IMG/VR virus record: IMGVR_UViG_3300047189_000007
Location: 1-51,436 of that record
DNA length: 51,436 bases
Strand: one strand, 5' to 3'
From: a virus
Taxonomy: Duplodnaviria > Caudoviricetes
The position numbers were made by a program, and so were the translations under genes. A model generated the notes under the pieces. That model had not been told where the DNA came from. It ran no database searches and saw nothing but the letters and a program-made list of their open reading frames with translations. This document shows, in pieces, positions 2,199-48,311 of the stretch. Numbering within the stretch: position 1 is the first letter of the stretch; every line of letters starts with the position of its first letter.

Positions 2199-2438
2199 CT
2201 ATTGCCGCATTGCTTTGAGATCTTTAGCTGTAAGTCCAAGGGACTTTAGAATTGCCTTTTCTTCGGCAGACAGGACAGGCACACCGGTTTTCCTCTTCGC
2301 TGGCTTTTCCCCATCGAAGTCAAAATTTGACATTGATTGTATGTCATTCACTCGTTTTATTCGAGCTTCTTCTACACTTGCTACTAAAGCCTCGTGGGTG
2401 AGGCTGAGTACGTTGATTCTCATATTTTCAAGTCTCAT
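2199..2438 (-). CDS. Hypothetical protein
   Basis: ORF with AAGGAG RBS; contains one copy of the dispersed palindrome. Confidence 0.7.
   Translation of the reverse strand: MRLENMRINVLSLTHEALVASVEEARIKRVNDIQSMSNFDFDGEKPAKRKTGVPVLSAEEKAILKSLGLTAKDLKAMRQ
2312..2336. repeat. Dispersed 25-bp palindrome, copy 1 (intragenic)
   Basis: CATCGAAGTCA AAATT TGACATTGA. Confidence 0.85.
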
Positions 2439-2449
2439 AGATATCTCCT

Positions 2450-2614
2450 TTACGAGTGCACAGACTCATTTATTTCACTTAATGCTTTTGTGATTGCTTG
2501 TTCAAGCAAAATAATAAATGGTCTTTCTGCCTTCACATACAGTTTAAGAGTTGCTTCACACCACGTACCAGGATTATCTGCTGGCTCACTTTTTACTATC
2601 AGTTTAACATTCAT
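2450..2614 (-). CDS. Hypothetical 54-aa protein (not in ORF track)
   Basis: AAGGAG RBS, MNVKLIVKSEP...; stop abuts the RBS of the next gene. Confidence 0.6.
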   Translation of the reverse strand: MNVKLIVKSEPADNPGTWCEATLKLYVKAERPFIILLEQAITKALSEINESVHS

Positions 2615-2633
2615 AATATCTCCTTTAAATGAA

Positions 2634-2747
2634 GGCGGTTATGTATCTCTGCGTTCGACACGACCAACACTGCATCGCTCGGTTTCCAGTGAGCGAAACG
2701 CTCCACACCCGAATCCGCACCGACTTTCACGGGAGCAAATAACCGCC
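2634..2747 (-). ncRNA. Putative multi-stem structured RNA
   Basis: 9-bp closing stem GGCGGTTAT/ATAACCGCC; internal stems GCTCC/GGAGC and TCGCTC/GAGCGA; a third stem with G-U pairs on the minus strand. Confidence 0.5.
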
Positions 2748-2796
2748 AAGCTCTATAAAGCAGCCGACACTGCACTGCCAAGGGTAGTACCAAGCG

Positions 2797-2949
2797 CTAC
2801 CCTTTACGCTCCTTTACCTCCTGCCATGCCTGCGCAGCATGTGCTAGGTTCGATGCTGCTTGTGTGAATTTCAGTGCATCATCCGACTTTACATCGCTAT
2901 TGATCTTAGCACACAGCACCTTTATTGCTTTTTCAATTGCAATCTTCAT
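2797..2949 (-). CDS. Hypothetical 50-aa protein (not in ORF track)
   Basis: GGAGG RBS, MKIAIEKAIKVLCAKINSDVKSDDALKFTQAASNLAHAAQAWQEVKERKG; stop lies in an 8-bp hairpin. Confidence 0.7.
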   Translation of the reverse strand: MKIAIEKAIKVLCAKINSDVKSDDALKFTQAASNLAHAAQAWQEVKERKG

Positions 2950-3122
2950 TGGGTTCTACCTCCAATTTTAATAAGCTTTTGGGTTCGAGGGCTGACCCTA
3001 CACACCCAGCACTCAGTTCTGAGCACTCATCATCGGACCGTTAGTCCGTTTGCTTACACGGGCCACAGCCGTGTGCATATATAGTTTATGTATCGCGATG
3101 CTGCCTCCTTTCCTATAGTTAT

Positions 3123-3644
3123 TTATATCTCAATCCTTATAATCTTTGGAATGTGCTCAGCCTTGACATCCTTGACATACTGAACCAGTCTGGTGCCACA
3201 GTACCGCATCTCTGCAACGACCTTATCAAAGAATTCCTTATCAAGAAAAGCACCCACAGCTACAACAGCTTGCAGATTTGAAACCCAAACACTACCATCT
3301 CCCTTTCTGGTCATACGGTGAGTATCCATTGAGTATCTTCTCTCTACCTCGCAGCCGTGTTTCTGCCTGATATCTCCGTAGTTCATGAAGTTTTCAAGCG
3401 CAACTATACGTACTTGAGGATGGCAATCCTGGCACACTATGGTAGCCACCTTGTGTTCAGATGGTTTCTTGACCTTATTGATGGCCAGTGGAGATGGCTG
3501 CTTATAATTGAAGAAGTTCCACATCAGCTCATCAAATGGATCAAACCTGAATTTCTTACCTGGCTCAGTTGTACTGCCTTTAGTAAAAAAGGTAGTCTTT
3601 CCTATACCTGGAACACCTATTAATTTTATCTTCCTCTTGCTCAT
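3123..3644 (-). CDS. Hypothetical protein
   Basis: AAAGGAGAG RBS before ATG 3644 (MSKRKIKLIGVPGIGKT; Walker-A-like but no further NTPase motifs seen). Confidence 0.7.
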   Translation of the reverse strand: MSKRKIKLIGVPGIGKTTFFTKGSTTEPGKKFRFDPFDELMWNFFNYKQPSPLAINKVKKPSEHKVATIVCQDCHPQVRIVALENFMNYGDIRQKHGCEVERRYSMDTHRMTRKGDGSVWVSNLQAVVAVGAFLDKEFFDKVVAEMRYCGTRLVQYVKDVKAEHIPKIIRIEI

Positions 3645-3669
3645 GTATACTCTCCTTTCATTAGTAAAA

Positions 3670-3840
3670 GGGGTGGGAGCCAGAACACTGTGATGGCAGA
3701 TCATCCAGGTGACCATCAGGCAGATAGACCCTTCGATCTTTTTATCCCACCCCAAAACGGAAGCAACTTCTACTTCGAGTAGAGCCTTGATAGACTGGCC
3801 GTCATACAAGCGGCGATTTCACTCAACAGTTCTCTCCCGT
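3670..3840 (-). ncRNA. Two tandem structured RNA domains in an intergenic region
   Basis: Closing stems ACGGGAG/CTTCCGT (3757-3840) and GGGGTGGGA/TCCCACCCC (3670-3753), each with internal hairpins; followed by a T-tract. Confidence 0.45.
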
Positions 3841-4181
3841 TTATAGTTGACATCTGGCAGCAATACCGGTAAGCTCCAGTGTTAGTTCCTTAATGCGTCT
3901 TGTCTTGACGCGTAGGATGTCTGCCATATCGGATAGATCTATTGTTAAATCAGCATCCTTTGCGACCTTGTCTGTTGCCGATGGAGGTTGTGGTCCAAGT
4001 ATGGGCATAAACACTGTTAATACAGTATTAACTGTCTCGCCCAGTATATTAATAGCCTGTTCCATACGATCCAACTGGTCAGATATAGGTCCTGAGTGTG
4101 TCGGCTTTCCAGCGCAATTTACTTCCGTCTTTCCTGTCCTCTCTCTCTATCAGCGCGTACTGCCATTTCTGAGCTATGCAT
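3841..4181 (-). CDS. Hypothetical protein, apparently frameshifted in an (AG)n run
   Basis: Strong RBS AAAGGAGG before ATG 4181 gives 20 aa; removing one AG unit joins it to 3841-4074. Confidence 0.45.
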
Positions 4182-4198
4182 GATTCCTCCTTTCGATA

Positions 4199-4236
4199 TA
4201 GGAGTGGGAGTCCCCATTCAAAAACTCCCACTCCTA
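4199..4236. other. Perfect 13-bp hairpin (processing site or terminator)
   Basis: TAGGAGTGGGAGT-N12-ACTCCCACTCCTA downstream of the SSB-like gene. Confidence 0.6.
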
Positions 4237-4267
4237 TTAGCACGTATGCACATTGCTCCGTGCTACA

Positions 4268-4831
4268 TTAGTTTGCTACCATCTCAGAGATCTGATTGCT
4301 TAGACGAGTCTGGTACTCTCTGATCTCGACTGCCACGATGACAGATATTCCGATCCACTCTGCGTTCATGAGCGCTTCCTTGATAAGCTCCGGCTCAGAC
4401 ATATTGATCTTCATCTTTTTGGAGAACTCCTGGATCATGTTGATCTTTGCCTGGCGCTTTGTCATCTTGCCAGTCTTTGTACGAAGATTCTCATCCCCCT
4501 TCTTGGGAAACCAGTTCTTGTACTGCAAGACGACACCGTCGACAGGTGTTTCATTGTCTGACATCATGATGTCCTCTTCAGCGTGCAGCGTAACGTCCCA
4601 GACTATGGCATTGTCTGCTGCGCTGAAGGTAACGTTCGTGGTGAAGCCTCCGTATCTTCCACCTGGAACTAAAGGAGGAATCTTGTACTCATCATCCACG
4701 TTGAAGTCAGTCTCGAACTTGATGTCTCCTGGCTCTGCAGGAGCCGCCAGCTCATCATGTACTTCCTCCCCTGTAGGCTCATCTACCTCAGCCGGAGGCG
4801 GTAGTGTCTGCTGCGATTGCTTCTTTGCCAT
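4268..4831 (-). CDS. Putative single-stranded DNA-binding protein (DUF669-like)
   Basis: PLVPGGRY motif, beta-rich core, position directly after a Sak4-like ATPase. Confidence 0.6.
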   Translation of the reverse strand: MAKKQSQQTLPPPAEVDEPTGEEVHDELAAPAEPGDIKFETDFNVDDEYKIPPLVPGGRYGGFTTNVTFSAADNAIVWDVTLHAEEDIMMSDNETPVDGVVLQYKNWFPKKGDENLRTKTGKMTKRQAKINMIQEFSKKMKINMSEPELIKEALMNAEWIGISVIVAVEIREYQTRLSNQISEMVAN

Positions 4832-5660
4832 TTTTAGTCTCCTTCTTCTTAGTTGTGGTCGTCGGACTTGGTTGTGCCGTCGGACTTGGTTTGGCTTCTT
4901 TCTTCCTCTTCCCTGTGAGATAATCAAACAGAACATTGAAGTCATTAGGTAGAAGATCCGGTAGAGTGCGTAGCTTTCCAGACATCCTTGACCGAGCTTG
5001 ATTCCAGCCCATAGGAACTGTCTGCATCAACCACTTTGTATCCCCTCCTTCCCTCTTAGTGGTGTGATAATATACTTCATCGAAGTATCCTGGAATGATA
5101 ACAGGCAATGCTCCAGTTAGCATAGGCTCTACTCCTACTACGTTGCCTGACTCTTTATCAGTAATCACATGAAGATGCGCAATGAAGTGGATATTGCAGT
5201 TCAAATTCATAAGCTGCCTTAGGCGCCCCTCCATTAGATGCCTGACCATCGTGTAGTGGATATTCCAAACTGGTCCTCCAACATCACTGCGCTTTGGGTC
5301 CATCTGGAGTGCTCGATCCATACACACAGCTGTCATAGCACTGAGATCATCTATGATTACTGATACGTACTGCCTTGGAAATTGCTCCTTTTTCTCGTTG
5401 GGAAAACTCTTGCCTTCCTTGAAGCACTTGATGAATGTGGCAAGATCCTTCTCGAACTTCGTCCATCCGATTGAACTGTTAGCATACTGTTCATAGTCGA
5501 ATGGGAGGCCCTTGTATGAGATGATGCTCTGAGCGAAGTCAAACACAAAGCCAGGTGTTGGGAAGGTACTCCCAAATATACTCTTTCCTGTGCCTGGAGC
5601 ACCCACAGACATCACCTTGATCCACTCTGTACTGACAGTCACATCCATTGCCGATGGCAT
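4788..5660 (-). CDS. AAA_24/Sak4-like ATPase (ssDNA-annealing recombinase)
   Basis: Walker A GAPGTGKS, Walker B VIIDDLS, FIAH and FDEVYY motifs, ARSR arginine finger. Confidence 0.8.
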   Translation of the reverse strand: MPSAMDVTVSTEWIKVMSVGAPGTGKSIFGSTFPTPGFVFDFAQSIISYKGLPFDYEQYANSSIGWTKFEKDLATFIKCFKEGKSFPNEKKEQFPRQYVSVIIDDLSAMTAVCMDRALQMDPKRSDVGGPVWNIHYTMVRHLMEGRLRQLMNLNCNIHFIAHLHVITDKESGNVVGVEPMLTGALPVIIPGYFDEVYYHTTKREGGDTKWLMQTVPMGWNQARSRMSGKLRTLPDLLPNDFNVLFDYLTGKRKKEAKPSPTAQPSPTTTTKKKETKNGKEAIAADTTASG

Positions 5661-5662
5661 AG

Positions 5663-5863
5663 TCACACCTCCGGTGCTAGGACACACTCAGCACATCTGG
5701 TGCCAATCATAGCAGCATTATCAGAAACCTGAACAACCAGTCGCGTCTGAAAAAGCGAACAGAATGCAAGATCTTCATCGAAGTAATCACAGATGTCTGC
5801 GCATTTTGTTGGTTGCTCGCCATCAACCTCAATCTCTGCAGTTACAGTAATATTCTTTGTCAT
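5663..5863 (-). CDS. Small Cys-rich protein
   Basis: CxxxC, C and CxxC; AAGGAGG RBS. Confidence 0.65.
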   Translation of the reverse strand: MTKNITVTAEIEVDGEQPTKCADICDYFDEDLAFCSLFQTRLVVQVSDNAAMIGTRCAECVLAPEV

Positions 5864-5873
5864 GTCATCCTCC

Positions 5874-5957
5874 TTATTTAAGTAGTGTGTAGATAACTGT
5901 GCATACAAGCACAATAAAGATCAGCCAGCCGATGTAGTTCTTTGATTCATCAGTCAT
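5874..5957 (-). CDS. 27-aa single-TM peptide (not in ORF track)
   Basis: MTDESKNYIGWLIFIVLVCTVIYTLLK; GAGGAG RBS. Confidence 0.5.
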   Translation of the reverse strand: MTDESKNYIGWLIFIVLVCTVIYTLLK

Positions 5958-6849
5958 CGGCAACCATCTCCTCTCTGTCGTCTGGTACAATGACAAATCC
6001 TGGCATGGTCATGAATCTGTCAATGTCCCACTTTGGATAATCACAGAGAGGAAGATATTCACAAGCTCGATTGAAATTGTAGCAGCTCGCATACTCTGGT
6101 GGCCATCCAGCTTTCTCTGCTACCAGCAGCTTATGTGTACTCCAGATGACATACTGCCGCCATTGGTTAAAATCATGGCTGCCAAAGATCTGAGGACTAT
6201 TAAGGAAGTCAATCGTCAGCTCCCCATACTCTCCTGTTTTCTTGGACTTGGAGGCTTTAAGCTGATGATAGTAGCAGAATGTTCCGGTGACCTCTGGGAT
6301 TTTATCTTGTGCTACAAACTGATATCCCATGAGTTGTGAAAGGCGCCTGAGTTTACTCACGATGTAAGGAAGGTCAACTGAGGTAGTCTTGAAGTCAACC
6401 ACCCAGATCATCCCATCAATCTCCAGCATGAGATCGATTACCACTACGAAGTTTATACTGAAGGCTCCGTACACAGTCTTCTCGCTTTTTGTTAGCGTTA
6501 TCTCCATAGTGAGAGTATTCTCTGGCATACCAATAACCTTGACATTATCAGCTGCGTATCGGTCATTGTACTGACCAAGCGAAGTCAATAGGTTATCAAG
6601 CGTTCGGTAGTCTGGCAAGAACTTCTGAATGGTGGGTTTCTTCCAGTAGTTAGCGGCAGCCTCAATAGCTTTCACGATATTTCTGTCGTTGGAATAGTAG
6701 CCTTCCATCCCTCTGTGATAACCACTGCCATATCGTATAGCTGTGCTGCCGATCTCTGGGTACAGACGAAGTTTTCTTGAGAACAGCGCTTTGCGTGGAC
6801 ACTGCTCACCTTGATTGATTGCTGAATGTGACATTCTGATAGGTTCCAT
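5950..6849 (-). CDS. PD-(D/E)XK exonuclease, Cas4/RecB-like
   Basis: N-terminal CPR, IDL...VVDFKT, QLMGY, and three C-terminal Cys (Fe-S staple pattern). Confidence 0.85.
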   Translation of the reverse strand: MEPIRMSHSAINQGEQCPRKALFSRKLRLYPEIGSTAIRYGSGYHRGMEGYYSNDRNIVKAIEAAANYWKKPTIQKFLPDYRTLDNLLTSLGQYNDRYAADNVKVIGMPENTLTMEITLTKSEKTVYGAFSINFVVVIDLMLEIDGMIWVVDFKTTSVDLPYIVSKLRRLSQLMGYQFVAQDKIPEVTGTFCYYHQLKASKSKKTGEYGELTIDFLNSPQIFGSHDFNQWRQYVIWSTHKLLVAEKAGWPPEYASCYNFNRACEYLPLCDYPKWDIDRFMTMPGFVIVPDDREEMVADD

Positions 6850-6873
6850 CTATTCTCTCCTTTCGATGGGCAT

Positions 6874-6926
6874 AAAAAAGGCTCTGCTAGTGCAGGCAAG
6901 GCAGATAACCTGCACCAACAAAGCCT
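6874..6926 (-). terminator. Long-stem intrinsic terminator or RNase III-type site
   Basis: 18-bp stem with 3 G-U pairs on the minus strand, followed by a T-run. Confidence 0.7.
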
Positions 6927-6934
6927 GGCGGGGA

Positions 6935-7369
6935 TTACTTCTTGGCGCCAACAGCAGGTCCGGCGGCCGGAGTTGCTTTGGGAGCGTTGGGATCGACTGC
7001 CGGAGCCAGCTTGAGGATACCCAGCTTGAGCAACAGCGCACGGGCTGCATCCTGCTCCTTCGGGGGCAGCTTCTCGATTCCGCTTTCGACGGCGGCCAGG
7101 GAGACCTTCTCTCCTGCGGGGCCACGCACTGACCAGTTACCTTCCATCAGTCCCTTCCACACTGCCTTGATGGAAGCCACGGCATCCGGGCCGCTCTCAC
7201 CCGCTGCAGAGTCACCGAGCTTGTGGCCGGCACCGAAAGGCATCAGCTTTGCTTTGATCTCTGCCGGCAACAGGGCGCAGTCGAAGATCATGGTTTCGTT
7301 GGTGACGGCTTCCTTGATAGTGATGACATTACCTTCGATGGATTTGAACAGCTTCTTTTGCTTTGCCAT
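6935..7369 (-). CDS. Hypothetical, probably highly expressed early protein
   Basis: AAGGAG RBS, GC-rich third positions, Ala/Pro/Lys tail, followed by a terminator. Confidence 0.8.
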   Translation of the reverse strand: MAKQKKLFKSIEGNVITIKEAVTNETMIFDCALLPAEIKAKLMPFGAGHKLGDSAAGESGPDAVASIKAVWKGLMEGNWSVRGPAGEKVSLAAVESGIEKLPPKEQDAARALLLKLGILKLAPAVDPNAPKATPAAGPAVGAKK

Positions 7370-7389
7370 AATTCATTTCTCCTTTATGT

Positions 7390-7566
7390 CTAAGTTGTTT
7401 GATTAGAAGATTCCTTACTCCCCGCCTCCGCTTCTTGCTTGCTCTGTTTCAGACGGTCCACAAGAGCTACTTTCACATAGTCACTGATGGACTCATCCTT
7501 ATCTATCGCGTCCTTTCTGACTTCTTTTGCAAGCTCTGTCGGGATACTCGCCTGAATGTGAGCCAT
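7390..7566 (-). CDS. Ribbon-helix-helix (CopG/Arc-like) DNA-binding protein
   Basis: HIQASIP strand, helix, then SISDYVKVAL helix; AAAGGAGG RBS; first gene after a sigma70 promoter. Confidence 0.7.
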   Translation of the reverse strand: MAHIQASIPTELAKEVRKDAIDKDESISDYVKVALVDRLKQSKQEAEAGSKESSNQTT

Positions 7567-7619
7567 GATCGTTACCTCCTTTCCCTCAGTAAACAGTTCA
7601 TCAGTCAATTTGATGTACC

Positions 7620-7648
7620 AGTCTACCATAGTTTTTCGTAGCTGTCAA
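7620..7648 (-). promoter_or_regulatory. Sigma70-type promoter
   Basis: TTGACA-17 bp-TAGACT with extended TG. Confidence 0.75.
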
Positions 7649-7671
7649 CAAGTATTTACTAGCTGACGCGT

Positions 7672-8118
7672 TTATTTTTTAGCTCTTTCTATGAGCTTTG
7701 CCATGTCCTCCCACTTAACAGCATCCCTCTTTTTTAGTTCCTTCTCCATAGCTCCCAGGATCTCTGATGGTGTACATCCTATCACATAGGTTAGTTCTGA
7801 TTCAAATGCCATCTGAGCCATATCACCACTAGGACCTTCAGTGCCCAAGTAGAAGTTCAGCGTATCAGAACTAATAAAGCCTTTTCTGGCCATGAGATTG
7901 ATGGTATTACGTAGATGGTTATCAGTCATCTTAGTAATTGGAATCTCTCTTCCATCTTCAGTTACCCATATCCAGACATTCTTCACCTTCCTGGGAGCTT
8001 TTCTGCTGGTGTGTACGCCGTAACACTCATCCATCAACTCTTCTGGATGCCTTTCATAGTATTCTTCCTCATCAAACATCCCCATGATTGCATCATCAGC
8101 ATGCTCTCCCATAGTCAT
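7672..8118 (-). CDS. Hypothetical phage protein
   Basis: ORF coupled by ATGA overlap; WVTEDGREIPITKMTDNHL segment. Confidence 0.7.
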   Translation of the reverse strand: MTMGEHADDAIMGMFDEEEYYERHPEELMDECYGVHTSRKAPRKVKNVWIWVTEDGREIPITKMTDNHLRNTINLMARKGFISSDTLNFYLGTEGPSGDMAQMAFESELTYVIGCTPSEILGAMEKELKKRDAVKWEDMAKLIERAKK

Positions 8119-8324: not shown

Positions 8325-8325
8325 G

Positions 8326-9264: not shown

Positions 9265-9275
9265 TTTGATCCTCC

Positions 9276-9584
9276 TTAAAAAGGTACTAAGTCACATCTA
9301 ATAGCCACTCTCTTAATGTAAGCAAGGGCTACACCTGGAGAATGAGTCATCTTCTCAAGAAATACCTCGAACTCATGCTCACTCCCCAGAGCGTAGATGT
9401 ACTCCTTCCGACTGTTAATTCGTACTGCTACATCAAGCACCCCGAAGTGGTCCTTCACCATCCCCAGGTATTCCAACTTCAGTCTGTAATCCACCAGGTT
9501 CCTCCTTAGTGTCAATGATGATAGGATCTCCGGTTTTCTCATCGACGTCAATTTTTGACATTGCTTCCGGCATTGGAGCATCAT
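9276..9584 (-). CDS. Hypothetical protein (true start probably near 9461)
   Basis: 3' part fills the gap between neighbouring genes. Confidence 0.5.
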   Translation of the reverse strand: MMLQCRKQCQKLTSMRKPEILSSLTLRRNLVDYRLKLEYLGMVKDHFGVLDVAVRINSRKEYIYALGSEHEFEVFLEKMTHSPGVALAYIKRVAIRCDLVPF

Positions 9585-9861: not shown

Positions 9862-9862
9862 G

Positions 9863-12223: not shown

Positions 12224-12240
12224 CTTCTTGCTCCTCCTAA

Positions 12241-12265
12241 GCAATGTCAAAAATTGTCATTGATG
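12241..12265. repeat. Dispersed palindrome, copy 3 (overlaps a stop codon)
   Basis: Reverse complement CATCAATGACA ATTTT TGACATTGC, identical to copy 10. Confidence 0.9.
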
Positions 12266-13195: not shown

Positions 13196-13199
13196 GAAA

Positions 13200-13620: not shown

Positions 13621-13679
13621 AATGCTCTTAATCGTACTTAATCGTGAGACAGCAGAGCTGTGGGAGCTTTCATGTATGC

Positions 13680-13706
13680 CATCAATGACAATTTTTGACA
13701 TCGATG
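13680..13706. repeat. Dispersed palindrome, copy 4 (intergenic)
   Basis: CATCAATGACA ATTTT TGACATCGATG. Confidence 0.9.
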
Positions 13707-16803: not shown

Positions 16804-17240
16804 TGAAAGCAATGTCAATTTTTGTCATTGGTGTGATACTACTTCTGGCTCTTGTATCTCCGATACATGCAAGAGATTTTGAGGATCGATACTCGTTCTG
16901 CTTATCAGTAAGTGGAAGCTATCGCACCTATATCATTGACAGACTTAACATCGAACTCATAGGCATCGACTGTGCGACTGATGAGTATGTCATCAAAATA
17001 GAGGATGCTAAGAAGTGGACTGATGCAATAGGTCCCGCCCTCTACACTGCCATAGTAACAGGTAAGAAGCCTGGAGTTGCTCTCATAATCACTGATAAAC
17101 GTGGTGAAGAGATGTATGTCAGACTCAAAGATCTGGCAGCTAAGTACGACATCAAGACCTGGAAGGCATACGGTGGCGCACTTGGATACTTCGACAGGAA
17201 GATAAAGGAACGGACTCAGTACAAATATCCGGTCCGCTGA
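16803..17240 (+). CDS. Signal-peptide protein with degenerate restriction-endonuclease-like fold
   Basis: Hydrophobic leader ending IHA; IDCATDEYVIKIE..KW.DAIG.AL pattern. Confidence 0.55.
   Translation: MKAMSIFVIGVILLLALVSPIHARDFEDRYSFCLSVSGSYRTYIIDRLNIELIGIDCATDEYVIKIEDAKKWTDAIGPALYTAIVTGKKPGVALIITDKRGEEMYVRLKDLAAKYDIKTWKAYGGALGYFDRKIKERTQYKYPVR
16809..16833. repeat. Dispersed palindrome, copy 5 (just after the terL stop)
   Basis: Reverse complement CACCAATGACA AAAAT TGACATTGC. Confidence 0.85.
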
Positions 17241-24601: not shown

Positions 24602-24626
24602 GCAATGTCAAAAAATGACATTGATT
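24602..24626. repeat. Dispersed palindrome, copy 6 (upstream of the portal gene)
   Basis: GCAATGTCA AAAAA TGACATTGATT. Confidence 0.9.
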
Positions 24627-29747: not shown

Positions 29748-29748
29748 C

Positions 29749-29773
29749 AATCGACGTCAAAATTTGACATTGC
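29749..29773. repeat. Dispersed palindrome, copy 7 (intergenic)
   Basis: AATCGACGTCA AAATT TGACATTGC. Confidence 0.9.
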
Positions 29774-35340: not shown

Positions 35341-36545
35341 CTGATATAATAAGAGAACAAAGTAAGTGGGCAAAGGAACGCACCAAGGTAATCACTGAAT
35401 ACATGGTGCAGAATAGAACTTTGTTCAATACAGTAGCTGGCAGAGGATTTACTGGAATCCCTGGCTTCTTGTATGATATGCAGAATGAGATAGAACTTGG
35501 AATCAAGTTCAAACTGTCTGATGCAAACACTGCAATTCTCACAGAAACGATTGAGAGAGAGTTAAAGGCCGCAGGTATCTTCTATGACCTTGCATTTAAG
35601 GCTGCTCAATTGGAGTGGGAACTTTCTAAGCAGGATCTTCTTGGAGATTGGGAGTTAGAATACTCTGGTATAAAACAGGGCCTGTCAAATACAGAGGAGT
35701 CTCTTATCAGAGCAGAGATTGCTGTGCAAGCAAGACAGGCTATCCTTATTACCATGAAGACAGCTATTGAGGTAGAGGCTGAAGGATATCGTAAGCAAAT
35801 AGCTGATCTCGCTGATGACTCTGCTGATTATGAAGTAACTCTTGCACAAAAGAAGATGCTTACTGCGAATAAGAAGTTAGAGATGCTTCCTGTTCTCAAT
35901 CAGATTATCTCAGCAGAGACTTCTCTTATAGCAGCAGAGCAAGGAAAGATTGCAAAGGAGACTGCTCTTGTTGCGAAGTTACAAGAAGTTGCAGCAAAGA
36001 AACAGGAACTAATTCCTTTGTTTGCTGCCCTTGTAGCACAAATGACTTTACTGGCAACTGCCCTTACTGCGCAGACAGGATTCTTGATTCAAGTAATGGG
36101 GCAAAAACTTTTGATTGCTGAAGCAGATTATAATAAGGCTGTTGAAGCATTGACTCGTGCAGCTACACTGCTTGAAATAGAAGATGTAAAGACAACGATT
36201 GAAGGACTTAAGATTAACATCGATAGGATCAAACAGGAGGCAGAAAATGAACTCCTTGTAAAGGAAGCGCAATCTGTTAGATCCGTATCTAGTTCTGAAG
36301 AAAGTAATGCTTACCAAACAAATCAGGATAATAGAGCAACTGGACAGGCAGTTGTGGCTACTAAGCTTGATAGTATTAGCGCTGATAGGTCTAGCAGAGT
36401 AGCTAAAATTAATCACGTTGGTGATTCAGATGTGGCGCGTATTACGCTGGAGTCTGCAAATAGAGATGCTACTGTACGCGAAACTGCTGACATATCTGCG
36501 ATTACTAATGTGACAGCGCAACTAGCACACTTACTATCTATGTAA
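35337..36545 (+). CDS. Coiled-coil virion protein
   Basis: Long heptad-rich helix; structural arm. Confidence 0.55.
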   Translation: MTDIIREQSKWAKERTKVITEYMVQNRTLFNTVAGRGFTGIPGFLYDMQNEIELGIKFKLSDANTAILTETIERELKAAGIFYDLAFKAAQLEWELSKQDLLGDWELEYSGIKQGLSNTEESLIRAEIAVQARQAILITMKTAIEVEAEGYRKQIADLADDSADYEVTLAQKKMLTANKKLEMLPVLNQIISAETSLIAAEQGKIAKETALVAKLQEVAAKKQELIPLFAALVAQMTLLATALTAQTGFLIQVMGQKLLIAEADYNKAVEALTRAATLLEIEDVKTTIEGLKINIDRIKQEAENELLVKEAQSVRSVSSSEESNAYQTNQDNRATGQAVVATKLDSISADRSSRVAKINHVGDSDVARITLESANRDATVRETADISAITNVTAQLAHLLSM

Positions 36546-36570
36546 TCAATGTCAATTTTTGACATCGATG
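36544..36570. repeat. Dispersed palindrome, copy 8 (at a stop codon)
   Basis: AATCAATGTCA ATTTT TGACATCGATG. Confidence 0.9.
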
Positions 36571-44479: not shown

Positions 44480-44504
44480 CATCAATGTCATTTTTTGACA
44501 TTGC
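44480..44504. repeat. Dispersed palindrome, copy 9 (convergence point of the two arms)
   Basis: CATCAATGTCA TTTTT TGACATTGC. Confidence 0.9.
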
Positions 44505-44739
44505 TGTATAGCGCAAGTACATGAGGTTCAAGTATCTTCCAGTAGCCTACCATATCAGCACGGTGTTTCGAGATGCAACTCACTCTACTCGTCCAAGTGA
44601 GTTGCATCTCGATAACATATTCTGCGAATGCCTCAGGAGATAGATCCTTCCCTGTTAGCTCTGCAAAGAGCATGGGATTTTTACTGAAGAAGCAATAGGC
44701 TTGTACAGCATTTCCTCTGTTACAATCAGCGCATTTCAT
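44488..44739 (-). CDS. Hypothetical Cys-containing protein
   Basis: MKCADC start in ATGA overlap. Confidence 0.6.
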   Translation of the reverse strand: MKCADCNRGNAVQAYCFFSKNPMLFAELTGKDLSPEAFAEYVIEMQLTWTSRVSCISKHRADMVGYWKILEPHVLALYSNVKK

Positions 44740-45188
44740 CAGAGTGCCTTTATGGCCTCTTGCCATGTAGGATAGAATTCAATCTGTGGTAACCAGTGAA
44801 AGATGTTCTCTTTATAGCCTACTACTATAGGACGCTTGTTAAGCACAAGTGCCATTCCAAACTCTACATGCCTTCCTCCTCTTGTAGAAGTAGAGTCAGG
44901 TGGCTCCGTAAAGTTCATCATTATGTCACACATGATGACATCATTCCAGTCATCAAGTGCAAACTTCTCTCGCAGTGCAGCATTTTCTTCACTTGCAATG
45001 CCTATGTCCTTGCACTCGACAAGTGCTACTCCGTCATCTCCAAGACACAGGCCATTAGGTGCCACTTGATGGGCGCCGGACAGCCACTTTGCAGCAACAA
45101 CATAGTTATCAATCTGGTTGATTATACGAGCATATTCCACCATCTCTTCTCGCCTGTCATATCTCGCTGCTAAATATACTCTCTTCAT
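44739..45188 (-). CDS. Nucleoside 2-deoxyribosyltransferase-like protein
   Basis: VYLAA, D..DV..CD and GG.HVEFGMA motifs. Confidence 0.75.
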   Translation of the reverse strand: MKRVYLAARYDRREEMVEYARIINQIDNYVVAAKWLSGAHQVAPNGLCLGDDGVALVECKDIGIASEENAALREKFALDDWNDVIMCDIMMNFTEPPDSTSTRGGRHVEFGMALVLNKRPIVVGYKENIFHWLPQIEFYPTWQEAIKAL

Positions 45189-46093
45189 TTCACATTCTCC
45201 CTTGCTGGAAATCCCTTAAAGATTGGTTGTCGAGGTCCGTCTATGGAGCCGTATCGTTGGTACTTGAATGATACAGTACTTCCCAAAAACGATGGGCGAT
45301 TATCCCAGATGACCTGCCGTAGTTTCTCTGTCAGCCCGATGCCTGTTCCCAGGCGAAACTCATCAGACCATAGGTCAGACTTTATTACGAAGGCTCCGAG
45401 AGTATCCTTGCCGACCTTACCATCTTGATGTGATGATCGCTTCATGAGACCCATCGCATCTTCGATAGCCTCGTTGTCATTACGCTGGGCTTCAATGAAG
45501 TCAGTGATTACTCCTTCTGCATCAGCAATAGGTTTTCTCTTGTAGATGTATCCCTCGTTGAATGTAGATCTGCCTTCTTTGTAAGTAGCTTCAAGAGAGC
45601 GAATCATTATTCCCTCGTAGCCATTCTTTACTGCAGATTCCTCGAAGCCTATGACTTCGTCAGCATTGCTTAGCATCGGCTGGCCAAGAACTATTACTCT
45701 GTTAAGAGGAGTATAAAGATGTGACTTCAACATCCATCTCCTCATATACGATGCTTCTTTGTCAGCGAAGTTATCGAAGACATAGAATCGGAAGTCTGGT
45801 GTTGCGTTGTATCTACGCAGTGGACCTGATGTTCTGTGGAATACATCATCTCCATATGGAGTACCAACTATCAACTCTCCATCCAGTCCATCGTAGGCAG
45901 AGTTATAAAGAATACTCTGGACATACTCATTCACTATGGGTTTCATAGATGAGGTAAGTGCACCTCCTTTTACGAGGCTTACACAGCATCTGAATCCATC
46001 CAGTTTAAATGAGCCGACCAGAGGATACTTAAGCTTTCGCAGTTGCTCATCCGTGATACTTTCAGATGGTGCTTTCATTGGTCGCTTAATCAT
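45185..46093 (-). CDS. ATP-dependent DNA ligase
   Basis: Motif I KLDGFR, LDGEL, FYVFD, EGIMIR; C-terminal OB fold. Confidence 0.92.
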   Translation of the reverse strand: MIKRPMKAPSESITDEQLRKLKYPLVGSFKLDGFRCCVSLVKGGALTSSMKPIVNEYVQSILYNSAYDGLDGELIVGTPYGDDVFHRTSGPLRRYNATPDFRFYVFDNFADKEASYMRRWMLKSHLYTPLNRVIVLGQPMLSNADEVIGFEESAVKNGYEGIMIRSLEATYKEGRSTFNEGYIYKRKPIADAEGVITDFIEAQRNDNEAIEDAMGLMKRSSHQDGKVGKDTLGAFVIKSDLWSDEFRLGTGIGLTEKLRQVIWDNRPSFLGSTVSFKYQRYGSIDGPRQPIFKGFPARENVK

Positions 46094-46646
46094 GTTGCAC
46101 CGCTGGAGGAAGAAACTCTGGATGCTCCAGATAATCTCTTAAGTAAGGAACAAGTGCTTTGCTCCATCCCGGTTGTCTGTGATTATATCGTTGCTGTACT
46201 ATATTTCTGAGTGTCTTGTAGCTACATACCCAGATCCGTCTCTGCATGAAGCCTTCAGGTAAGGCATTCTTCAATATCATAAGATCCTCATTACTCTTGG
46301 TTTCTTGATACTGATGCACATAGAGATTTAACAGACCAAGATACTCATCACTGATTGGCATTTCGAAGTCACCTTGTTCCAGATTCCCTTTATGGATCGT
46401 ATGCATTGTTGACTCCGATTGCTTTGTAGCAATACGATATGTATCTGCTTCTTGCCACCAATGCCGAGGAGCATTTACATTAAGCCATACAATCATAGCT
46501 TCCAAAAACTTATTGTGTCCTCCATCCTTCTGGGAAAGAGCAGGTGCAATTACTTTTGCCCTGTCTGTTGTGACTCCGTGGGATAAAGACAATCCTGTCA
46601 TTGCTTCGTTATAGCCAGCCTCTTTCATGATGTAAACTTCTAGCAT
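46086..46646 (-). CDS. ThyX (flavin-dependent thymidylate synthase)-like protein
   Basis: H.KFLE, APRHWWQEADTYR, SESTMH, LPEG, R.NHR..W; canonical RHR motif absent. Confidence 0.6.
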   Translation of the reverse strand: MLEVYIMKEAGYNEAMTGLSLSHGVTTDRAKVIAPALSQKDGGHNKFLEAMIVWLNVNAPRHWWQEADTYRIATKQSESTMHTIHKGNLEQGDFEMPISDEYLGLLNLYVHQYQETKSNEDLMILKNALPEGFMQRRIWVCSYKTLRNIVQQRYNHRQPGWSKALVPYLRDYLEHPEFLPPAVQHD

Positions 46647-46659
46647 ACTCACTCTCCTT

Positions 46660-47874
46660 TCATTTAACATCTTCTTTTAAGTTAGACTTATACCATATCC
46701 CTGTCTCCCCCTTAGGTCCCCGAAACATCTTCTGTACCCTTCCTGTTTTTGTTGCAGTGTTAATGACATTTATAAACTTGTTGTCATCGATGTCTCTCCA
46801 CACCATAGACATGAGGCGAGTCTCAGATATCCACTTGTAATCAAAGATAATCTGCATTACAGTATCAACCTCACTGGTAACATCAGACTTACCAATGGCT
46901 CTGAATACTAAGCCCATATCGCGCTCAACAGATTCGACATCCTCAATAGCTTTCTGTATATACCTCCACTCCATCTTCAACTCATTGGATACAGACGCTG
47001 CCCTGCCTATAGCTACCTTCAACACATACATAGGCTTTCTGCTGTACCACCCGTCAAATGATTTGTCCTGGCATATCCGCTTCTTACTCTTCTCATCATA
47101 TGCCATATACCATCTATCCCATTCTCTGTCACACTCAGGAGTCATTATATAATCTCCTGCTATTCGTGAGATTTGGTATAGATCTCTAACGAGTTTCTCT
47201 TGTAGAACAATCTCTGCCTTTGTTAGTTTTGGCTTAGGAGCTTTACACTTCTTGTCATCTGCCCAGATAAAGAGTATCCTGGATGTAAGTCCTCCACCAA
47301 CTGCCGTAGCAGGTAGGGTTGATGCAAGTGACTGCGGTGTAGTGGCCGCGAGGAGATTAATAAAGACTGATGGGATTACATTCGATCCGCTATTCTTAGT
47401 ACGATATTTTCTAGGTAGTTCCTGGCAGTCAAACACATCCGTCAGGAACACAACCATTCTGGTATTGTCCTTCTTCTGCCCAATGAAAGACTCGAATTCT
47501 TTAGAGATAATACTGAGAGAGCTGTGCCTGAACACTTCTCCATTGGGCATAGGTTGATCCATAGCAGAACTTTCTAGATCCTGCAATAGAGCTTCCTTAG
47601 TTGTTTCATCAGCACTCATTACTATCTCTGGGATCTTAGCCAAGAACTCTACTCCAAATGAGATAGCCTGAGTTTTACGAGCAATGCCTGGTTCTGCAAC
47701 AAATACTAAATAGATGTTAGGATATATATTTATCCTGCCTATTGGGAGCTTAACCTTCTTTCTCAAGGCTGAAGCTATCAGTGAATGACTTACCCACTTA
47801 TCATATACTGCGGCAGGCTCCGTGTTGGTCATAAACTCTTTGTAACTTTCGATCCAATCTGGTAGCTGACGCAT
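46660..47874 (-). CDS. DUF3987-type P-loop ATPase (putative replicative helicase)
   Basis: PNIYLVFVAEPGIARKT Walker A variant, LLAATTP, GGLTSR. Confidence 0.7.
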   Translation of the reverse strand: MRQLPDWIESYKEFMTNTEPAAVYDKWVSHSLIASALRKKVKLPIGRINIYPNIYLVFVAEPGIARKTQAISFGVEFLAKIPEIVMSADETTKEALLQDLESSAMDQPMPNGEVFRHSSLSIISKEFESFIGQKKDNTRMVVFLTDVFDCQELPRKYRTKNSGSNVIPSVFINLLAATTPQSLASTLPATAVGGGLTSRILFIWADDKKCKAPKPKLTKAEIVLQEKLVRDLYQISRIAGDYIMTPECDREWDRWYMAYDEKSKKRICQDKSFDGWYSRKPMYVLKVAIGRAASVSNELKMEWRYIQKAIEDVESVERDMGLVFRAIGKSDVTSEVDTVMQIIFDYKWISETRLMSMVWRDIDDNKFINVINTATKTGRVQKMFRGPKGETGIWYKSNLKEDVK

Positions 47875-47876
47875 GA

Positions 47877-48269
47877 CTATCCTTTCTGAAACAGTAACTT
47901 CAGCGCATCATTGAAGTGAGCCTCGTTTGATTTTGGAGCTATGCTCCGACGTTGTCTTCGTACAAAGTTTGTTACAGTTGCTTTCATTTCATCCAGTTTA
48001 TCTATAACGCTATTGATATAGAAGTTCGTATCACCGGAGAATCCACTCAATGCCTCTAATGACATAGAGATTGGTATTATCACTATACGGTAAGTAGATG
48101 CAACATTCTTCCTACCCTTTACTTCATGAAATACAGTGATATTATGTATCCCTGACTGTACTATACTGATATCAAGATCAGTATGATAGGCTGCTATCAG
48201 TTGAGTTCTTAGTGCAGCCACTGCTCTTTCTGCCTCTAATACAGAGGTGACTACAATTACTGAATTCAT
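47877..48269 (-). CDS. Hypothetical protein
   Basis: AAGGAGG RBS. Confidence 0.7.
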   Translation of the reverse strand: MNSVIVVTSVLEAERAVAALRTQLIAAYHTDLDISIVQSGIHNITVFHEVKGRKNVASTYRIVIIPISMSLEALSGFSGDTNFYINSVIDKLDEMKATVTNFVRRQRRSIAPKSNEAHFNDALKLLFQKG

Positions 48270-48286
48270 TATACCTCCTTATATAT

Positions 48287-48311
48287 CATCAATGACAATT
48301 TTTGACATTGC
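48287..48311. repeat. Dispersed palindrome, copy 10 (intergenic)
   Basis: CATCAATGACA ATTTT TGACATTGC. Confidence 0.9.

What the first reader, a model, noticed from the sequence alone, without database searches (positions are those of the whole stretch)
2312..48311. Ten copies of a 25-bp quasi-palindrome spread around the whole genome
Seen: consensus MATCRAYGWCA-W5-TGACATYGM at 2312, 9540, 12241, 13680, 16809, 24602, 29749, 36544, 44480 and 48287. Copies 3 and 10 are exact reverse complements. Gaps on the circle are 1.4-7.9 kb. Most copies sit at or just after stop codons, including the point where the two arms converge, but some are kept inside coding sequence (read as SMSNFDFD, AMSKIDVD, AMSIFVIG), implying selection on the DNA. 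None has a correctly spaced -10 box in the copies I checked. Knowledge: dyads with an A/T spacer are typical of dimeric DNA-binding proteins; dispersed arrays are known as mycobacteriophage L5 stoperators and as parS sites. Inference: a genome-wide binding-site system for silencing, partition/condensation, or protection during entry. Encoded candidate binders are the RHH protein (7390-7566), the ParB domain of the ParB-MTase, and the unknown early proteins at 6935 and 13794.
Basis: partly seen in the sequence, partly recalled or inferred. Interest (0 to 1): 0.9.

Follow-up and report, generated by a model that had tools for sequence, protein, structure and literature searches.

The report
Phage-wide docking sites for ParB–methyltransferase
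Ten evenly spread copies of one mirror-symmetric DNA word in this uncultured phage are most likely docking sites for the phage's own ParB-type DNA-binding protein fused to a DNA methylase, a pairing that recurs with changed DNA words in many related phages.

Summary
The ten 25-bp quasi-palindromes are real (10 sites; 0.04 matches expected). Their 13-bp core GTCAA-W3-TTGAC recurs 4-13 times per genome in all 11 relatives read at or near full length (PolA 46-63% identical). It is spread more evenly than chance and mostly wedged between a stop codon and the next ribosome-binding site. The sites are not sigma-70 promoters, intrinsic terminators or stable RNA hairpins: half-site mismatches are uncompensated and orientation ignores transcription. 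More distant relatives keep the architecture with other half-sites (CGTA, GTGA, GGGA, GTTA, TCCC around an A-W3-T centre). The only sequence-specific DNA-binding protein I found shared by all array-bearing genomes is the ParB-methyltransferase fusion (828-2189). It keeps the ParB CTP box and a ParB-type helix-turn-helix. Its recognition-helix start changes with half-site type, a site lies within 600 nt of its gene in 21 of 35 loci, and it models as a dimer. Best reading (about 0.5): parS-like docking or loading sites for this protein. Binding and function are untested, and one cultured relative (Mel-JY34) has the gene but no array. The RHH and 13794 proteins are rejected as readers. This scan noted similar phage-wide palindromes earlier on other DNA; Cluster O mycobacteriophages have them too.

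The parts
2312..2336 (.). site 1, CATCGAAGTCAAAATTTGACATTGA. It lies 123 nt upstream of the ParB-MTase start, inside the 79-aa ORF 2199-2438. The syntenic copy in relative G006 is at 22425.
9540..9564 (.). site 2, inside ORF 9433-9861 as called. The motif's own ATG could be a start codon.
12241..12265 (.). site 3, intergenic, about 17 nt upstream of a GGAGGAG RBS and the ATG of a minus-strand gene. It is the exact reverse complement of site 10.
13680..13704 (.). site 4, intergenic, just downstream of the intrinsic terminator (13742-13759, minus strand) of the first early gene.
16809..16833 (.). site 5, 6 nt after the TerL stop and overlapping the start of a small membrane-protein ORF. It is the left border of a 7.8-kb gene block that is absent between TerL and portal in G013 and L198.
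24602..24626 (.). site 6, between a stop codon and the RBS of the portal gene. It is the right border of the same block. The syntenic copy in G006 is at 40525.
29749..29773 (.). site 7, between the stop of 28956-29747 and the next start.
36544..36568 (.). site 8, overlapping the stop of 35337-36545, with RBS and ATG 20 nt downstream.
44480..44504 (.). site 9, at the point where the two gene arms converge, after the 1629-aa virion protein. The syntenic copy in G006 is at 13655.
48287..48311 (.). site 10, between minus-strand genes 48313-48627 and 47877-48269, followed by AAGGAGG and ATG.
828..2189 (-). ParB-methyltransferase fusion (453 aa), the proposed reader of the sites.
   Evidence: Pfam ParB_N and N6_N4_Mtase; PHROG ParB-like and MTase families; PDB sequence matches to Spo0J, ParB, Noc and to DpnA, CcrM; AF2 model with pLDDT 84.5; Foldseek
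1791..2114 (-). ParB N-terminal (CTPase-fold) domain, aa 26-133. The GGRR box (G72 G73 R74 R75) and the EENxQR box are invariant or nearly so in 61 relatives.
1668..1754 (-). ParB-type helix-turn-helix, aa 146-174 (WTMEDTAETVGRTRTSIMDDLALAQAL). Model helices are 148-155 and 159-174.
831..1535 (-). beta-class N6A/N4C DNA methyltransferase domain, aa 219-453 (DPPY, then FxGSG). It holds the predicted dimer interface, residues 306-398.

Best explanation
The ten palindromes are double-stranded-DNA binding sites, analogous to parS or KorB operators, for the phage's own ParB-methyltransferase fusion. This protein carries a ParB CTP-binding N-domain, a ParB-type helix-turn-helix and a beta-class DNA methyltransferase that probably supplies dimerisation. 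A dimer would read the core GTCAA-W3-TTGAC with its two helix-turn-helix motifs. The sites are spaced every few kb so that the protein is docked, or loaded as a sliding clamp, along the whole phage chromosome. Shown here: the array, its conservation, its DNA-level character, and the domain make-up of the protein. Speculative: what docking achieves. I rank cis-targeted methylation of phage DNA for protection first and KorB-like long-range transcription control second.
For: (1) The array is real and conserved. There are 10 sites against 0.04 expected. The exact core occurs in 13 of 19 related records searched, with 0 hits for the reversed control pattern in all 19. With one mismatch or a relaxed centre there are 4-13 sites in each of 11 relatives read at or near full length.
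(2) The selection acts on DNA, not RNA. Half-site mismatches such as GACAA, GTCAT and TTGTC are not compensated on the other arm. Only 14 of 69 sites fold better than the 5th percentile of random windows of their own genome, 1 of 10 in the window. Flank asymmetry is not tied to transcription direction: the AG-at-minus-6 side lies upstream in 45 and downstream in 31 of 88 scorable sites.
(3) Placement fits a genome-covering function. 61 of 99 site centres are non-coding against 7.6 expected. Copies occur inside very long genes. Spacing is more even than random: window CV 0.43, P=0.006; Fisher over 8 genomes P=4e-4.
(4) Outer relatives keep the architecture XXXX-A-W3-T-X'X'X'X' with other half-sites: CGTA (7 copies in L239), GTGA, GGGA and GTTA (L271; 8 copies in G021), and TCCC (9 copies in GenBank OP947158.1).
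(5) At my tblastn thresholds, only ParB-MTase, primase and PolA are shared with the window by all of G021, the GGGA-type loci and OP947158.1. Ligase and weak Sak4 matches occur in some. ParB-MTase is the only one of these with a sequence-specific DNA-binding domain.
(6) The protein has the GGRR and ENxQR ParB boxes and a ParB-pattern HTH. In the AF2 model, 184-195 alignment columns match ParB, Noc and Spo0J chains that comprise the N-domain and the DNA-binding domain.
(7) The start of the recognition helix tracks half-site type: G[KRV][TS][KR] with GTCA, TEGN[VI]R with CGTA, DRSSVSK with GTGA, DHK[TG]V with GGGA. The CGTA and GTTA types are nested in a GTCA-majority clade of the protein tree.
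(8) A site lies within 600 nt of the ParB-MTase gene in 21 of 35 loci. For five other conserved genes of the same loci the figures are 6 of 31 to 12 of 29 (Fisher P=0.0014, not corrected for relatedness).
(9) The homodimer model scored 0.69 with best of 3 controls 0.00. That mark was reached by 20 of 30 proteins solved as pairs of one chain and by 1 of 23 solved as single chains. The runs agree in at least 59% of contacts and the partner pLDDT is at least 74. The interface lies in the MTase domain.
Against: No binding was measured, and no tool here models protein-DNA contacts.
The whole replication-recombination module (ParB-MTase, SSB-like p225, Sak4, exonuclease, primase, PolA) travels together. 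Co-occurrence and the link between HTH and half-site are therefore confounded by shared ancestry, and loci of one half-site type are close kin.
Microcystis phage Mel-JY34 has a ParB-MTase homologue (30% identity) but I found no array by three methods. Its HTH region is divergent, which could excuse this but does not prove it.
By my strict perfect-palindrome count, 31 of the 61 loci in the tree had fewer than 2 copies of any of five tested half-site types, although many of these loci are short.
The nearest site to the gene is 1.8-3.5 kb away in G015 and G013.
Most sites outside the window's own type have an asymmetric flank: AG 4 nt from the core on one side and 7 nt on the other. A simple symmetric dimer does not explain this.
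The dimer pass may reflect memory of solved beta-class methyltransferase dimers; that these enzymes dimerise is my recollection, not a result of any call.
A host protein as reader cannot be excluded because the host is unknown.
Confidence: 0.5

Rival explanations
1. The sites bind a different protein. This could be another phage product, such as the conserved 144-aa protein 6935-7369, or a host regulator or nucleoid protein. They would act as transcription roadblocks or insulators between gene modules, and ParB-MTase would merely be a fellow traveller.
For: Sites sit at module borders: after TerL, before portal, after the head genes, at the convergence point, and beside the replication genes. 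Site density is higher near the divergent early/late control region in several genomes. ORF144 is conserved in all GTCA-, CGTA- and GTGA-type genomes examined. The host is unknown, so host factors cannot be tested.
Against: ORF144 has no Pfam or PHROG hit and only viral hypothetical look-alikes. It is not detected in G021, the GGGA-type loci or OP947158.1, all of which have arrays. It has a weak match in Mel-JY34, which has none. The RHH and 13794 proteins occur only in G006. A host factor would have to change specificity in step with the phage lineages through six half-site types. The sites do not overlap the strong sigma-70-like promoters at 14317, 14584, 13195 and 7648.
Confidence: 0.2
2. 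The element works in RNA, as an intercistronic hairpin that marks processing sites or protects the 3' ends of upstream messages.
For: The position is typical for such elements: 5-12 nt after the stop and 18-36 nt before the next start. A palindrome folds in either orientation. 14 of 69 sites are below the 5th percentile of folding energy.
Against: Most hairpins are weak, with window sites at -3.0 to -8.8 kcal/mol apart from one at -14.4, and ordinary for their genome. Mismatches in the stem are not compensated. In relatives only 5-6 A/T-rich pairs are conserved, and the base flanking the core does not covary. Copies lie inside coding regions and at even spacing. No RNA data could be obtained.
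Confidence: 0.08
3. The sites are promoters or terminators for a phage-specific transcription machinery, either a phage RNA polymerase or sigma factor, or N4-like hairpin promoters.
For: About ten near-identical 20-30-bp words in short intergenic gaps, each followed by RBS and ATG, is the pattern of T7-type promoters. The 6-bp stem with a 3-nt loop resembles N4 virion-polymerase promoters in geometry (comparison from knowledge, not tested). The core contains TTGACA on both strands.
Against: No RNA polymerase or sigma factor was found among the roughly 50 proteins scanned. The 1629-aa protein has no family or PDB match and is not conserved across the clade that shares the core. Orientation of the asymmetric flanks is not tied to gene direction. 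Copies lie at the convergence point and inside genes. There is no room for a -10 box and a start site before the RBS. The flanks in the window have no T-tract and the stems are not GC-rich.
Confidence: 0.07
4. The sites are recombination linkers or small mobile palindromes (REP/MITE- or PeSL-like) that mediate exchange of gene blocks and have no binding protein of their own.
For: Sites 16809 and 24602 flank a 7.8-kb block that is absent between TerL and portal in G013 and L198. W-to-G006 homology begins 18 nt before site 24602. The structural and replication modules are reshuffled among relatives.
Against: A 13-bp shared core is too short for homologous exchange between lineages. At least three sites are syntenic between the window and G006 although the flanking DNA is only 64-71% identical or unalignable. 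Even spacing and copies inside genes are not expected of insertions. No transposase or integrase was seen among the proteins scanned. Repeats in both orientations would be hazardous unless selected for a function.
Confidence: 0.05

Closest known systems
KorB and its 12 OB operators on IncP plasmid RK2 (McLean et al. 2025, PMC11790492; I read the abstract and outline. The count of 12 and the 13-bp OB sequence are recalled, not seen in a call.)
   Same: A ParB-family protein with a CTP-binding N-domain and an HTH. A short palindrome dispersed over a roughly 50-60-kb mobile genome, mostly intergenic. Action at a distance by sliding from the site.
   Different: KorB has a C-terminal dimerisation domain, a partner KorA and a ParA (IncC). 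Here the C-terminal part is a DNA methyltransferase, no KorA or ParA was seen, and the genome looks like a lytic phage. Binding, CTPase activity and sliding are untested here.
17-bp dyad repeat TGTTCGG-N3-CCGAACA of Cluster O mycobacteriophages (Cresawn et al. 2015, PMC4351075; passages read)
   Same: Inverted half-sites separated by a 3-bp A/T-rich spacer, spread through the genome, many intergenic and some in genes. Orientation is not tied to transcription. The phages are not evidently temperate and encode an orphan ParB-like protein (Corndog gp90). The function was left unknown and a dimeric binder was predicted.
   Different: There are more than 30 copies per genome against about 10 here. 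The half-site is G/C-rich and the hosts are unrelated. The authors did not link the repeats to the ParB-like protein, and I did not test whether gp90 resembles the protein here.
Chromosomal ParB-parS and Noc-NBS
   Same: The N-domain boxes (GxRR, ENxQR) and an HTH that aligns by sequence and fold. A palindromic site of 13-16 bp with half-site centres about 8 bp apart.
   Different: No ParA was seen and there is no ParB C-terminal domain. The fusion to a methyltransferase is new. About ten sites are spread around the genome rather than clustered near an origin.
Stoperators of mycobacteriophage L5 and the dispersed C1 operators of phage P1 (recalled from knowledge)
   Same: Many copies of one operator spread over a phage genome, many of them away from promoters.
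   Different: Those sites are asymmetric. For L5 they are oriented with transcription, and they are read by the immunity repressor of a temperate phage. Here the sites are palindromic and orientation-free, and no repressor or integrase was seen.
ParB-fold fusions surveyed by Hocher et al. 2025 (PMC12704722; passages read) and HerB/YfjB of F plasmid (PMC13370423; passages read)
   Same: The survey reports ParB-CTPase fold fusions to N6_N4 methyltransferases as frequent in phages, with function unknown. HerB shows a ParB N-domain and HTH on a new dimerisation module that forms a clamp-like dimer.
   Different: In the passages I read, neither paper reports cognate DNA sites for the methyltransferase fusions.

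Membership tests
ParB/parS-type systems (ParB, Noc, KorB) | N-terminal ParB CTPase fold with the GxxRxxA (box II) and ENxQR (box III) motifs | tested here: met
   Pfam ParB_N scored 26.9 bits against a cutoff of 26.3. phmmer hits to Spo0J and ParB had E=2e-8. G72, R74, R75, E103 and N107 are invariant and G73 and R110 nearly invariant in 61 relatives.
ParB/parS-type systems (ParB, Noc, KorB) | ParB-type helix-turn-helix DNA-binding domain following the N-domain | tested here: met
   The sequence pattern TxxDTAxxxGKTxGxVxxDLxLA is present. Model helices are 148-155 and 159-174. Foldseek aligns 184-195 columns to ParB, Noc and Spo0J chains.
ParB/parS-type systems (ParB, Noc, KorB) | Cognate palindromic site of about 13-16 bp that the protein binds | not testable with these tools
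   A palindrome of the right size exists and changes along with the HTH, but no binding assay or protein-DNA model was available.
ParB/parS-type systems (ParB, Noc, KorB) | Dimerisation that closes a clamp around DNA | tested here: inconclusive
   The homodimer model scored 0.69 with best control 0.00, through the MTase domain. It may reflect likeness to solved methyltransferase dimers, and N-domain engagement was not assessed.
ParB/parS-type systems (ParB, Noc, KorB) | ParA partner for partition | tested here: inconclusive
   No ParA-like family appeared among the roughly 50 window proteins scanned, but not every small ORF was scanned.
L5-type stoperators | Asymmetric site whose orientation follows the direction of transcription | tested here: not met
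   The core is palindromic. The flank asymmetry points either way: 45 against 31 of 88 scorable sites.
Sigma-70 promoter | A -35 hexamer, a 16-18 bp spacer and a -10 hexamer, with room for a transcript start before the RBS | tested here: not met
   8 of 10 sites have no -10 box, and the other 2 have weak antisense hits. The start codon lies only 19-24 nt after the core.
Intrinsic terminator or stable intercistronic RNA hairpin | G+C-rich stable stem (with a U-tract for terminators), and pairing kept by compensatory change | tested here: not met
   None of the ten sites is listed by the terminator scan. Folding energies are ordinary for 55 of 69 sites. Mismatches are uncompensated.
REP/MITE-type mobile palindromes | Insertion polymorphism, target duplications and a cognate transposase | tested here: not met
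   Three or more sites are syntenic with G006. No transposase or integrase was seen among the scanned proteins. Target duplications were not examined in detail.
Cluster O-type dyad repeats | Inverted half-sites with a 3-bp A/T spacer, dispersed, orientation-free, in a non-temperate phage with an orphan ParB-like gene | tested here: met
   All descriptive features are met. Homology of the proteins or of the sites was not tested, so this is a likeness in kind, not shown kinship.

The most novel reading that the evidence does not exclude
The palindromes are loading sites for a CTP-gated ParB-methyltransferase clamp. The HTH pair recognises the site, the N-domains close, and the dimer, held together by its methyltransferase domains, slides a few kb and methylates the phage DNA it encircles. 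This would give fast, self-restricted (in cis) protection of phage DNA against host restriction without methylating the host chromosome. The even spacing of about 5 kb would then reflect the sliding range. Each phage lineage would have its own private word, because six half-site types change along with the recognition helix.
Probability: 0.2. Interest if true: 0.85.

Novelty: new variant of a known kind. Interest (0 to 1): 0.68.

Why it matters
ParB-fold fusions to N6/N4 DNA methyltransferases are reported as frequent in phages but have no known function or DNA target (PMC12704722, passages read). If these arrays are their targets, a whole class of orphan phage ParB proteins gains a testable role. 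The unexplained dyad repeats of Cluster O mycobacteriophages gain a candidate reader. The natural set of six helix/half-site pairs offers a ready-made specificity series for ParB-type DNA recognition. If the sliding-methylase reading holds, it would be a new way for a virus to mark its own DNA as self.

Tried and rejected
Exact-word scans of viral contigs for the window's long palindrome found only 5 single-copy, unrelated loci. Of the 80 loci I counted, 68 held one core copy, so this was not useful for defining the family. Relatives were instead found through TerL, PolA and ParB-MTase.

RNA evidence: no RNA holder was listed for window 24000-33999.

Host: there is no close cultured relative (TerL at most 37% identical, PolA at most 28%). 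TerL relatives in genome bins sit in bins labelled Erysipelotrichaceae, Bacillota, Micrarchaeota, Desulfobacterales, Acholeplasmataceae and Woesebacteria. These labels are mutually inconsistent and are probably mis-binned phage contigs.

The 1629-aa protein as a virion RNA polymerase: no PHROG, Pfam or PDB sequence match, and it is not conserved across the clade. I dropped it as a reader. Its fold was not predicted.

Half-site depletion: GTCAA and TTGACA are not under-represented elsewhere in these genomes, so only the paired arrangement is special.

A comparison of array frequency in loci with and without ParB-MTase is confounded. Most loci without the gene that hold 3 or more copies (at least 14 of 18) are other pieces of genomes or contigs that carry the gene elsewhere. 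I draw nothing from it.

Mel-JY34: no array by gapped-palindrome counts, k-mer counts or the repeat finder. I report this as evidence against universality.

The careful tree did not finish in 300 s. The quick IQ-TREE tree with SH-aLRT support was used.

ESM Atlas look-up of ORF144 gave only viral hypothetical clusters.

Literature: four full-text searches found no paper assigning DNA sites to ParB-methyltransferase fusions. Supplementary files were not opened, so datasets of PMC12704722 that list tested fusion proteins could bear on this.

Full report
OBSERVATION. It gave 18 matches counting both strands, against a mean of 0.04 in 100 dinucleotide-preserving shuffles. Copy 3 and copy 10 are exact reverse complements. 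The window is a complete IMG/VR virus record (CheckV 100%). It carries an imperfect terminal direct repeat: 1-300 equals 50419-50718 at 96%. ORF 2-559 is a second copy of the PolA N-terminus, and the 95-aa ORFs 569-856 and 50987-51274 are near-identical. The unit genome is therefore 50,418 bp. Gaps between sites on that circle are 1.4-7.9 kb.

GENOME CONTEXT. The genes form two arms. Minus-strand replication, recombination and early genes occupy 44488-51436 and 1-14255. They include UDG-PolA, a DUF3987 primase, a ligase, ParB-MTase, a PD-(D/E)XK exonuclease and Sak4. Plus-strand packaging, lysis and virion genes occupy 14666-44477. They include an HTH small terminase, TerL, portal, major head protein, a head-closure protein and a 1629-aa protein of no known family. 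Strong sigma-70-like promoters with a TG-extended -10 box sit in the divergent region (14317 minus, 14584 plus) and at 13195 and 7648. None overlaps a palindrome.

ANATOMY OF THE SITES. Seven of ten copies read AGCAATGTCAA-W3-TTGWCRTYGAT when oriented. Sites 24602, 29749, 36544 and 48287 lie 5-9 nt after a stop codon and 19-24 nt before the next start, with the RBS in between. Site 12241 lies about 17 nt before an RBS and ATG. Site 13680 follows an intrinsic terminator. Site 44480 is at the convergence of the arms. Sites 2312, 9540 and 16809 lie in ORFs as called, and in each the motif's ATG could be the start codon. This leaves no room for a -10 box and a transcript start before the RBS. Only two sites overlap weak, antisense promoter-like hits. 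None is listed as terminator-like.

CONSERVATION. Relatives were fetched through TerL (19 loci) and PolA (23 loci). The 13-bp core GTCAA-W3-TTGAC occurs exactly in 13 of 19 related records searched. The reversed control pattern gave zero in all 19. Allowing one mismatch or a relaxed centre, each of 11 relatives read at or near full length (PolA 46-63% identical to the window's) has 4-13 sites. The window's long outer arms (TCAATG...CATTGA) are its own. In other lineages the flanks differ and are usually asymmetric, with AG 4 nt from the core on one side and 7 nt on the other: 45 of 88 scorable sites show exactly that pair. At least three window sites are syntenic with G006: in the small ORF upstream of ParB-MTase, directly before portal, and after the large virion protein. 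The surrounding DNA there is 64-71% identical or unalignable.

DNA OR RNA. Half-site variants (GACAA, GTCAT, TTGTC, CGAC flanks) are never compensated on the other arm. Predicted RNA hairpins are ordinary for their genomes. Only 14 of 69 sites, and 1 of 10 in the window, fall below the 5th percentile of random 37-nt windows. The asymmetric flank points either way relative to transcription: the AG-at-minus-6 side is upstream in 45 and downstream in 31 of 88. Across 11 genomes, 61 of 99 site centres are non-coding against 7.6 expected under my crude gene calls. Yet copies also occur inside very long genes, for example in the 2241-aa gene of G011 and the 1827-aa gene of G016. Spacing is more even than random: window CV 0.43, P=0.006, largest gap P=0.003; Fisher combination over 8 genomes P=4e-4; three of the eight are individually below 0.05. 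Half-sites alone are not depleted elsewhere. Together this points to a double-stranded DNA site for a symmetric protein, selected to cover the genome and pushed into the tiny intergenic gaps because a rigid 25-bp word is hard to encode.

WHO READS IT. By BLAST, the proteins shared by all genomes with the GTCAA core are ParB-MTase, an SSB-like 225-aa protein, Sak4, the exonuclease, the 144-aa protein 6935-7369, TerS/TerL, primase and PolA. The RHH protein and the 13794 protein occur only in G006 and are rejected.

The outgroup G021 (PolA 29%) lacks the GTCAA core. It has eight copies of AGTCYGTTWAA-W3-5-TTWAACRGACT, the same design with GTTAA half-sites. At tblastn E<=1e-5 it shares only ParB-MTase (24%), primase, PolA and ligase with the window.

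I then fetched 80 loci around ParB-MTase relatives; at least 513 such relatives exist in IMG/VR. Besides many GTCA arrays, I found CGTAA-W3-TTACG (7 copies in L239, 3 in L245), GTGAA-W3-TTCAC (L275, L277, L288), GGGGA-W5-TCCCC followed by AAAGGAG (L290, L293, L294) and CGTTAA-W3-TTAACA (4 copies in L271). The GenBank record OP947158.1 (Desulfofustis phage LS06-2018-MD01, ParB-MTase 27.5% identical) carries nine copies of GCTATGTCCCAA-W-TTGGGACATAGC spaced 1.7-7.8 kb apart. The general form is XXXX-A-W3-T-X'X'X'X'.

ORF144 is not detected in G021, the GGGA-type loci or OP947158.1. It has a weak match in Mel-JY34, which has no array. ParB-MTase, primase and PolA are the only proteins detected in all array-bearing lineages, and only ParB-MTase has a sequence-specific DNA-binding domain.

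THE PROTEIN. Pfam finds ParB_N and N6_N4_Mtase. phmmer aligns residues 31-133 to Spo0J, ParB and Noc, and 219-447 to DpnA and CcrM-type enzymes. The GGRR and EENxQR boxes are invariant or nearly so in 61 relatives. Residues 146-174 have the ParB helix-turn-helix pattern. An AlphaFold2 model built on 61 sequences (mean pLDDT 84.5) shows helices 148-155 and 159-174, a long helix 184-214 and the methyltransferase fold. Foldseek aligns 184-195 columns to ParB, Noc and Spo0J chains, and the C-terminal half to CcrM, N4-cytosine and other beta-class methyltransferases.

The first residues of the recognition helix differ by half-site type. They are G[KRV][TS][KR] with GTCA, TEGN[VI]R with CGTA, DRSSVSK with GTGA, and DHK[TG]V with GGGA. 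The array-less Mel-JY34 has a divergent sequence here. In a quick maximum-likelihood tree the CGTA and GTTA types are nested within a GTCA-majority clade of 28 rows (SH-aLRT 95), so they look like specificity switches.

A site lies within 600 nt of the ParB-MTase gene in 21 of 35 non-redundant loci. The figures for the other conserved genes of the same loci are 11 of 31 (p225), 9 of 31 (Sak4), 12 of 29 (exonuclease), 6 of 31 (primase) and 7 of 31 (PolA) (Fisher P=0.0014, not corrected for relatedness).

A homodimer model scored 0.69, with the best of 3 controls at 0.00. That mark was reached by 20 of 30 proteins solved as pairs of one chain and by 1 of 23 solved as single chains. The runs agree in at least 59% of contacts and the partner pLDDT is at least 74. 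The interface lies in residues 306-398 of the methyltransferase domain. Because beta-class methyltransferases have, as I recall, been solved as dimers, this pass may show likeness only.

AGAINST. Nothing here measures binding. The replication module is inherited as a block, so co-occurrence and the link between helix and half-site are confounded by ancestry. Mel-JY34 has the gene but no array that I could find. Many short or divergent loci showed fewer than two perfect copies of any tested type (31 of 61 rows). The 3-nt flank asymmetry is unexplained by a simple dimer. The host, and therefore any host reader, is unknown.

COMPARISON. The closest working analogue is KorB with its dispersed OB operators on RK2, a CTP-dependent sliding clamp (PMC11790492; abstract and outline read). 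The closest descriptive analogue is the 17-bp dyad repeat with an A/T-rich 3-bp spacer of Cluster O mycobacteriophages. Its function is unknown, and those phages also encode an orphan ParB-like protein that the authors did not connect to the repeat (PMC4351075; passages read). A 2025 survey reports ParB-fold fusions to N6_N4 methyltransferases as frequent in phages, with unknown role (PMC12704722; passages read). My four literature searches found no paper giving such fusions a DNA site. Earlier notes of this scan describe comparable arrays on other phage genomes, one of them attributed to a ParB/KorB-like protein. These were leads, not evidence.

VERDICT. The best-supported mechanism is an array of parS-like sites read by the phage's ParB-methyltransferase (confidence about 0.5). 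That the sites are protein-binding DNA sites of some kind I put at about 0.8. The purpose of docking is open. It is a new variant of a known kind.

Noticed in passing
window 1-1018 and 50419-51436: There is an imperfect direct terminal repeat, 96% identical over the first 300 nt. It duplicates the PolA N-terminus, a 95-aa ORF and the ParB-MTase C-terminus. The unit genome is 50,418 bp. The mismatches suggest an assembly across population variants, which may be why the record is classed as linear.
   Followed up: partly
window 16809-24602: A 7.8-kb block of small genes, including the endolysin 22727-23188, lies between TerL and portal and is bordered by two palindrome copies. In G013 and in locus L198, TerL and portal are adjacent. 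G006 has a similar block between its sites at 35426 and 40525.
   Followed up: partly
GenBank OP947158.1 (locus L298) 245-43004: Nine copies of GCTATGTCCCAA-W-TTGGGACATAGC are spaced 1.7-7.8 kb apart in a named, metagenome-derived phage record that encodes a ParB-MTase homologue at 10342-11634, annotated as a ParB-like partition protein.
   Followed up: partly
G021 (loci L204-L206), e.g. 1682, 10793, 19908, 32628, 34230, 36383, 44902, 47495: Eight copies of AGTCYGTTWAA-W3-5-TTWAACRGACT occur in an outgroup phage (PolA 29% identical). The design matches the window's motif with one changed half-site letter.
   Followed up: partly
locus L239 317-17236; L275; L290, L293, L294: Further private words occur around ParB-MTase relatives: CGTAA-W3-TTACG (7 copies), GTGAA-W3-TTCAC, and TATGGGGA-W5-TCCCCAAAGGAG directly upstream of an RBS.
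   Followed up: partly
window 48590-50977: The PolA carries an N-terminal uracil-DNA-glycosylase-superfamily domain (Pfam UDG, residues 7-157). This fusion is conserved in all relatives examined.
   Followed up: no
window 13742-14317 and 14584-14612: The first early gene (13794-14255) has its own near-consensus promoter (TTGACA-17-TATTAT with TG) and an intrinsic terminator. A facing near-consensus promoter starts the late arm. Extended -10 TG motifs are frequent, which is a hint about the host's promoter type.
   Followed up: no
window 46086-46670: This 194-aa protein has a weak ThyX-like (Thy1) match (E=0.003, below the Pfam cutoff) and a strong match to an unnamed PHROG. It sits between the primase and the ligase.
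   Followed up: no
related genomes G009-G019, all sites: The flank asymmetry is unexplained. A conserved AG (often within AGAAA) lies 4 nt from the core on one side, and another AG (within AGWCA) lies 7 nt from it on the other. Either orientation occurs relative to genes.
   Followed up: partly
GenBank PP438425.1 (locus L296): Microcystis phage Mel-JY34, an isolated cyanophage, shares the two-arm layout, ParB-MTase, PolA, a DUF3987 primase and a giant virion protein. It has 59.5% G+C and no detectable palindrome array, and its HTH segment is divergent.
   Followed up: partly
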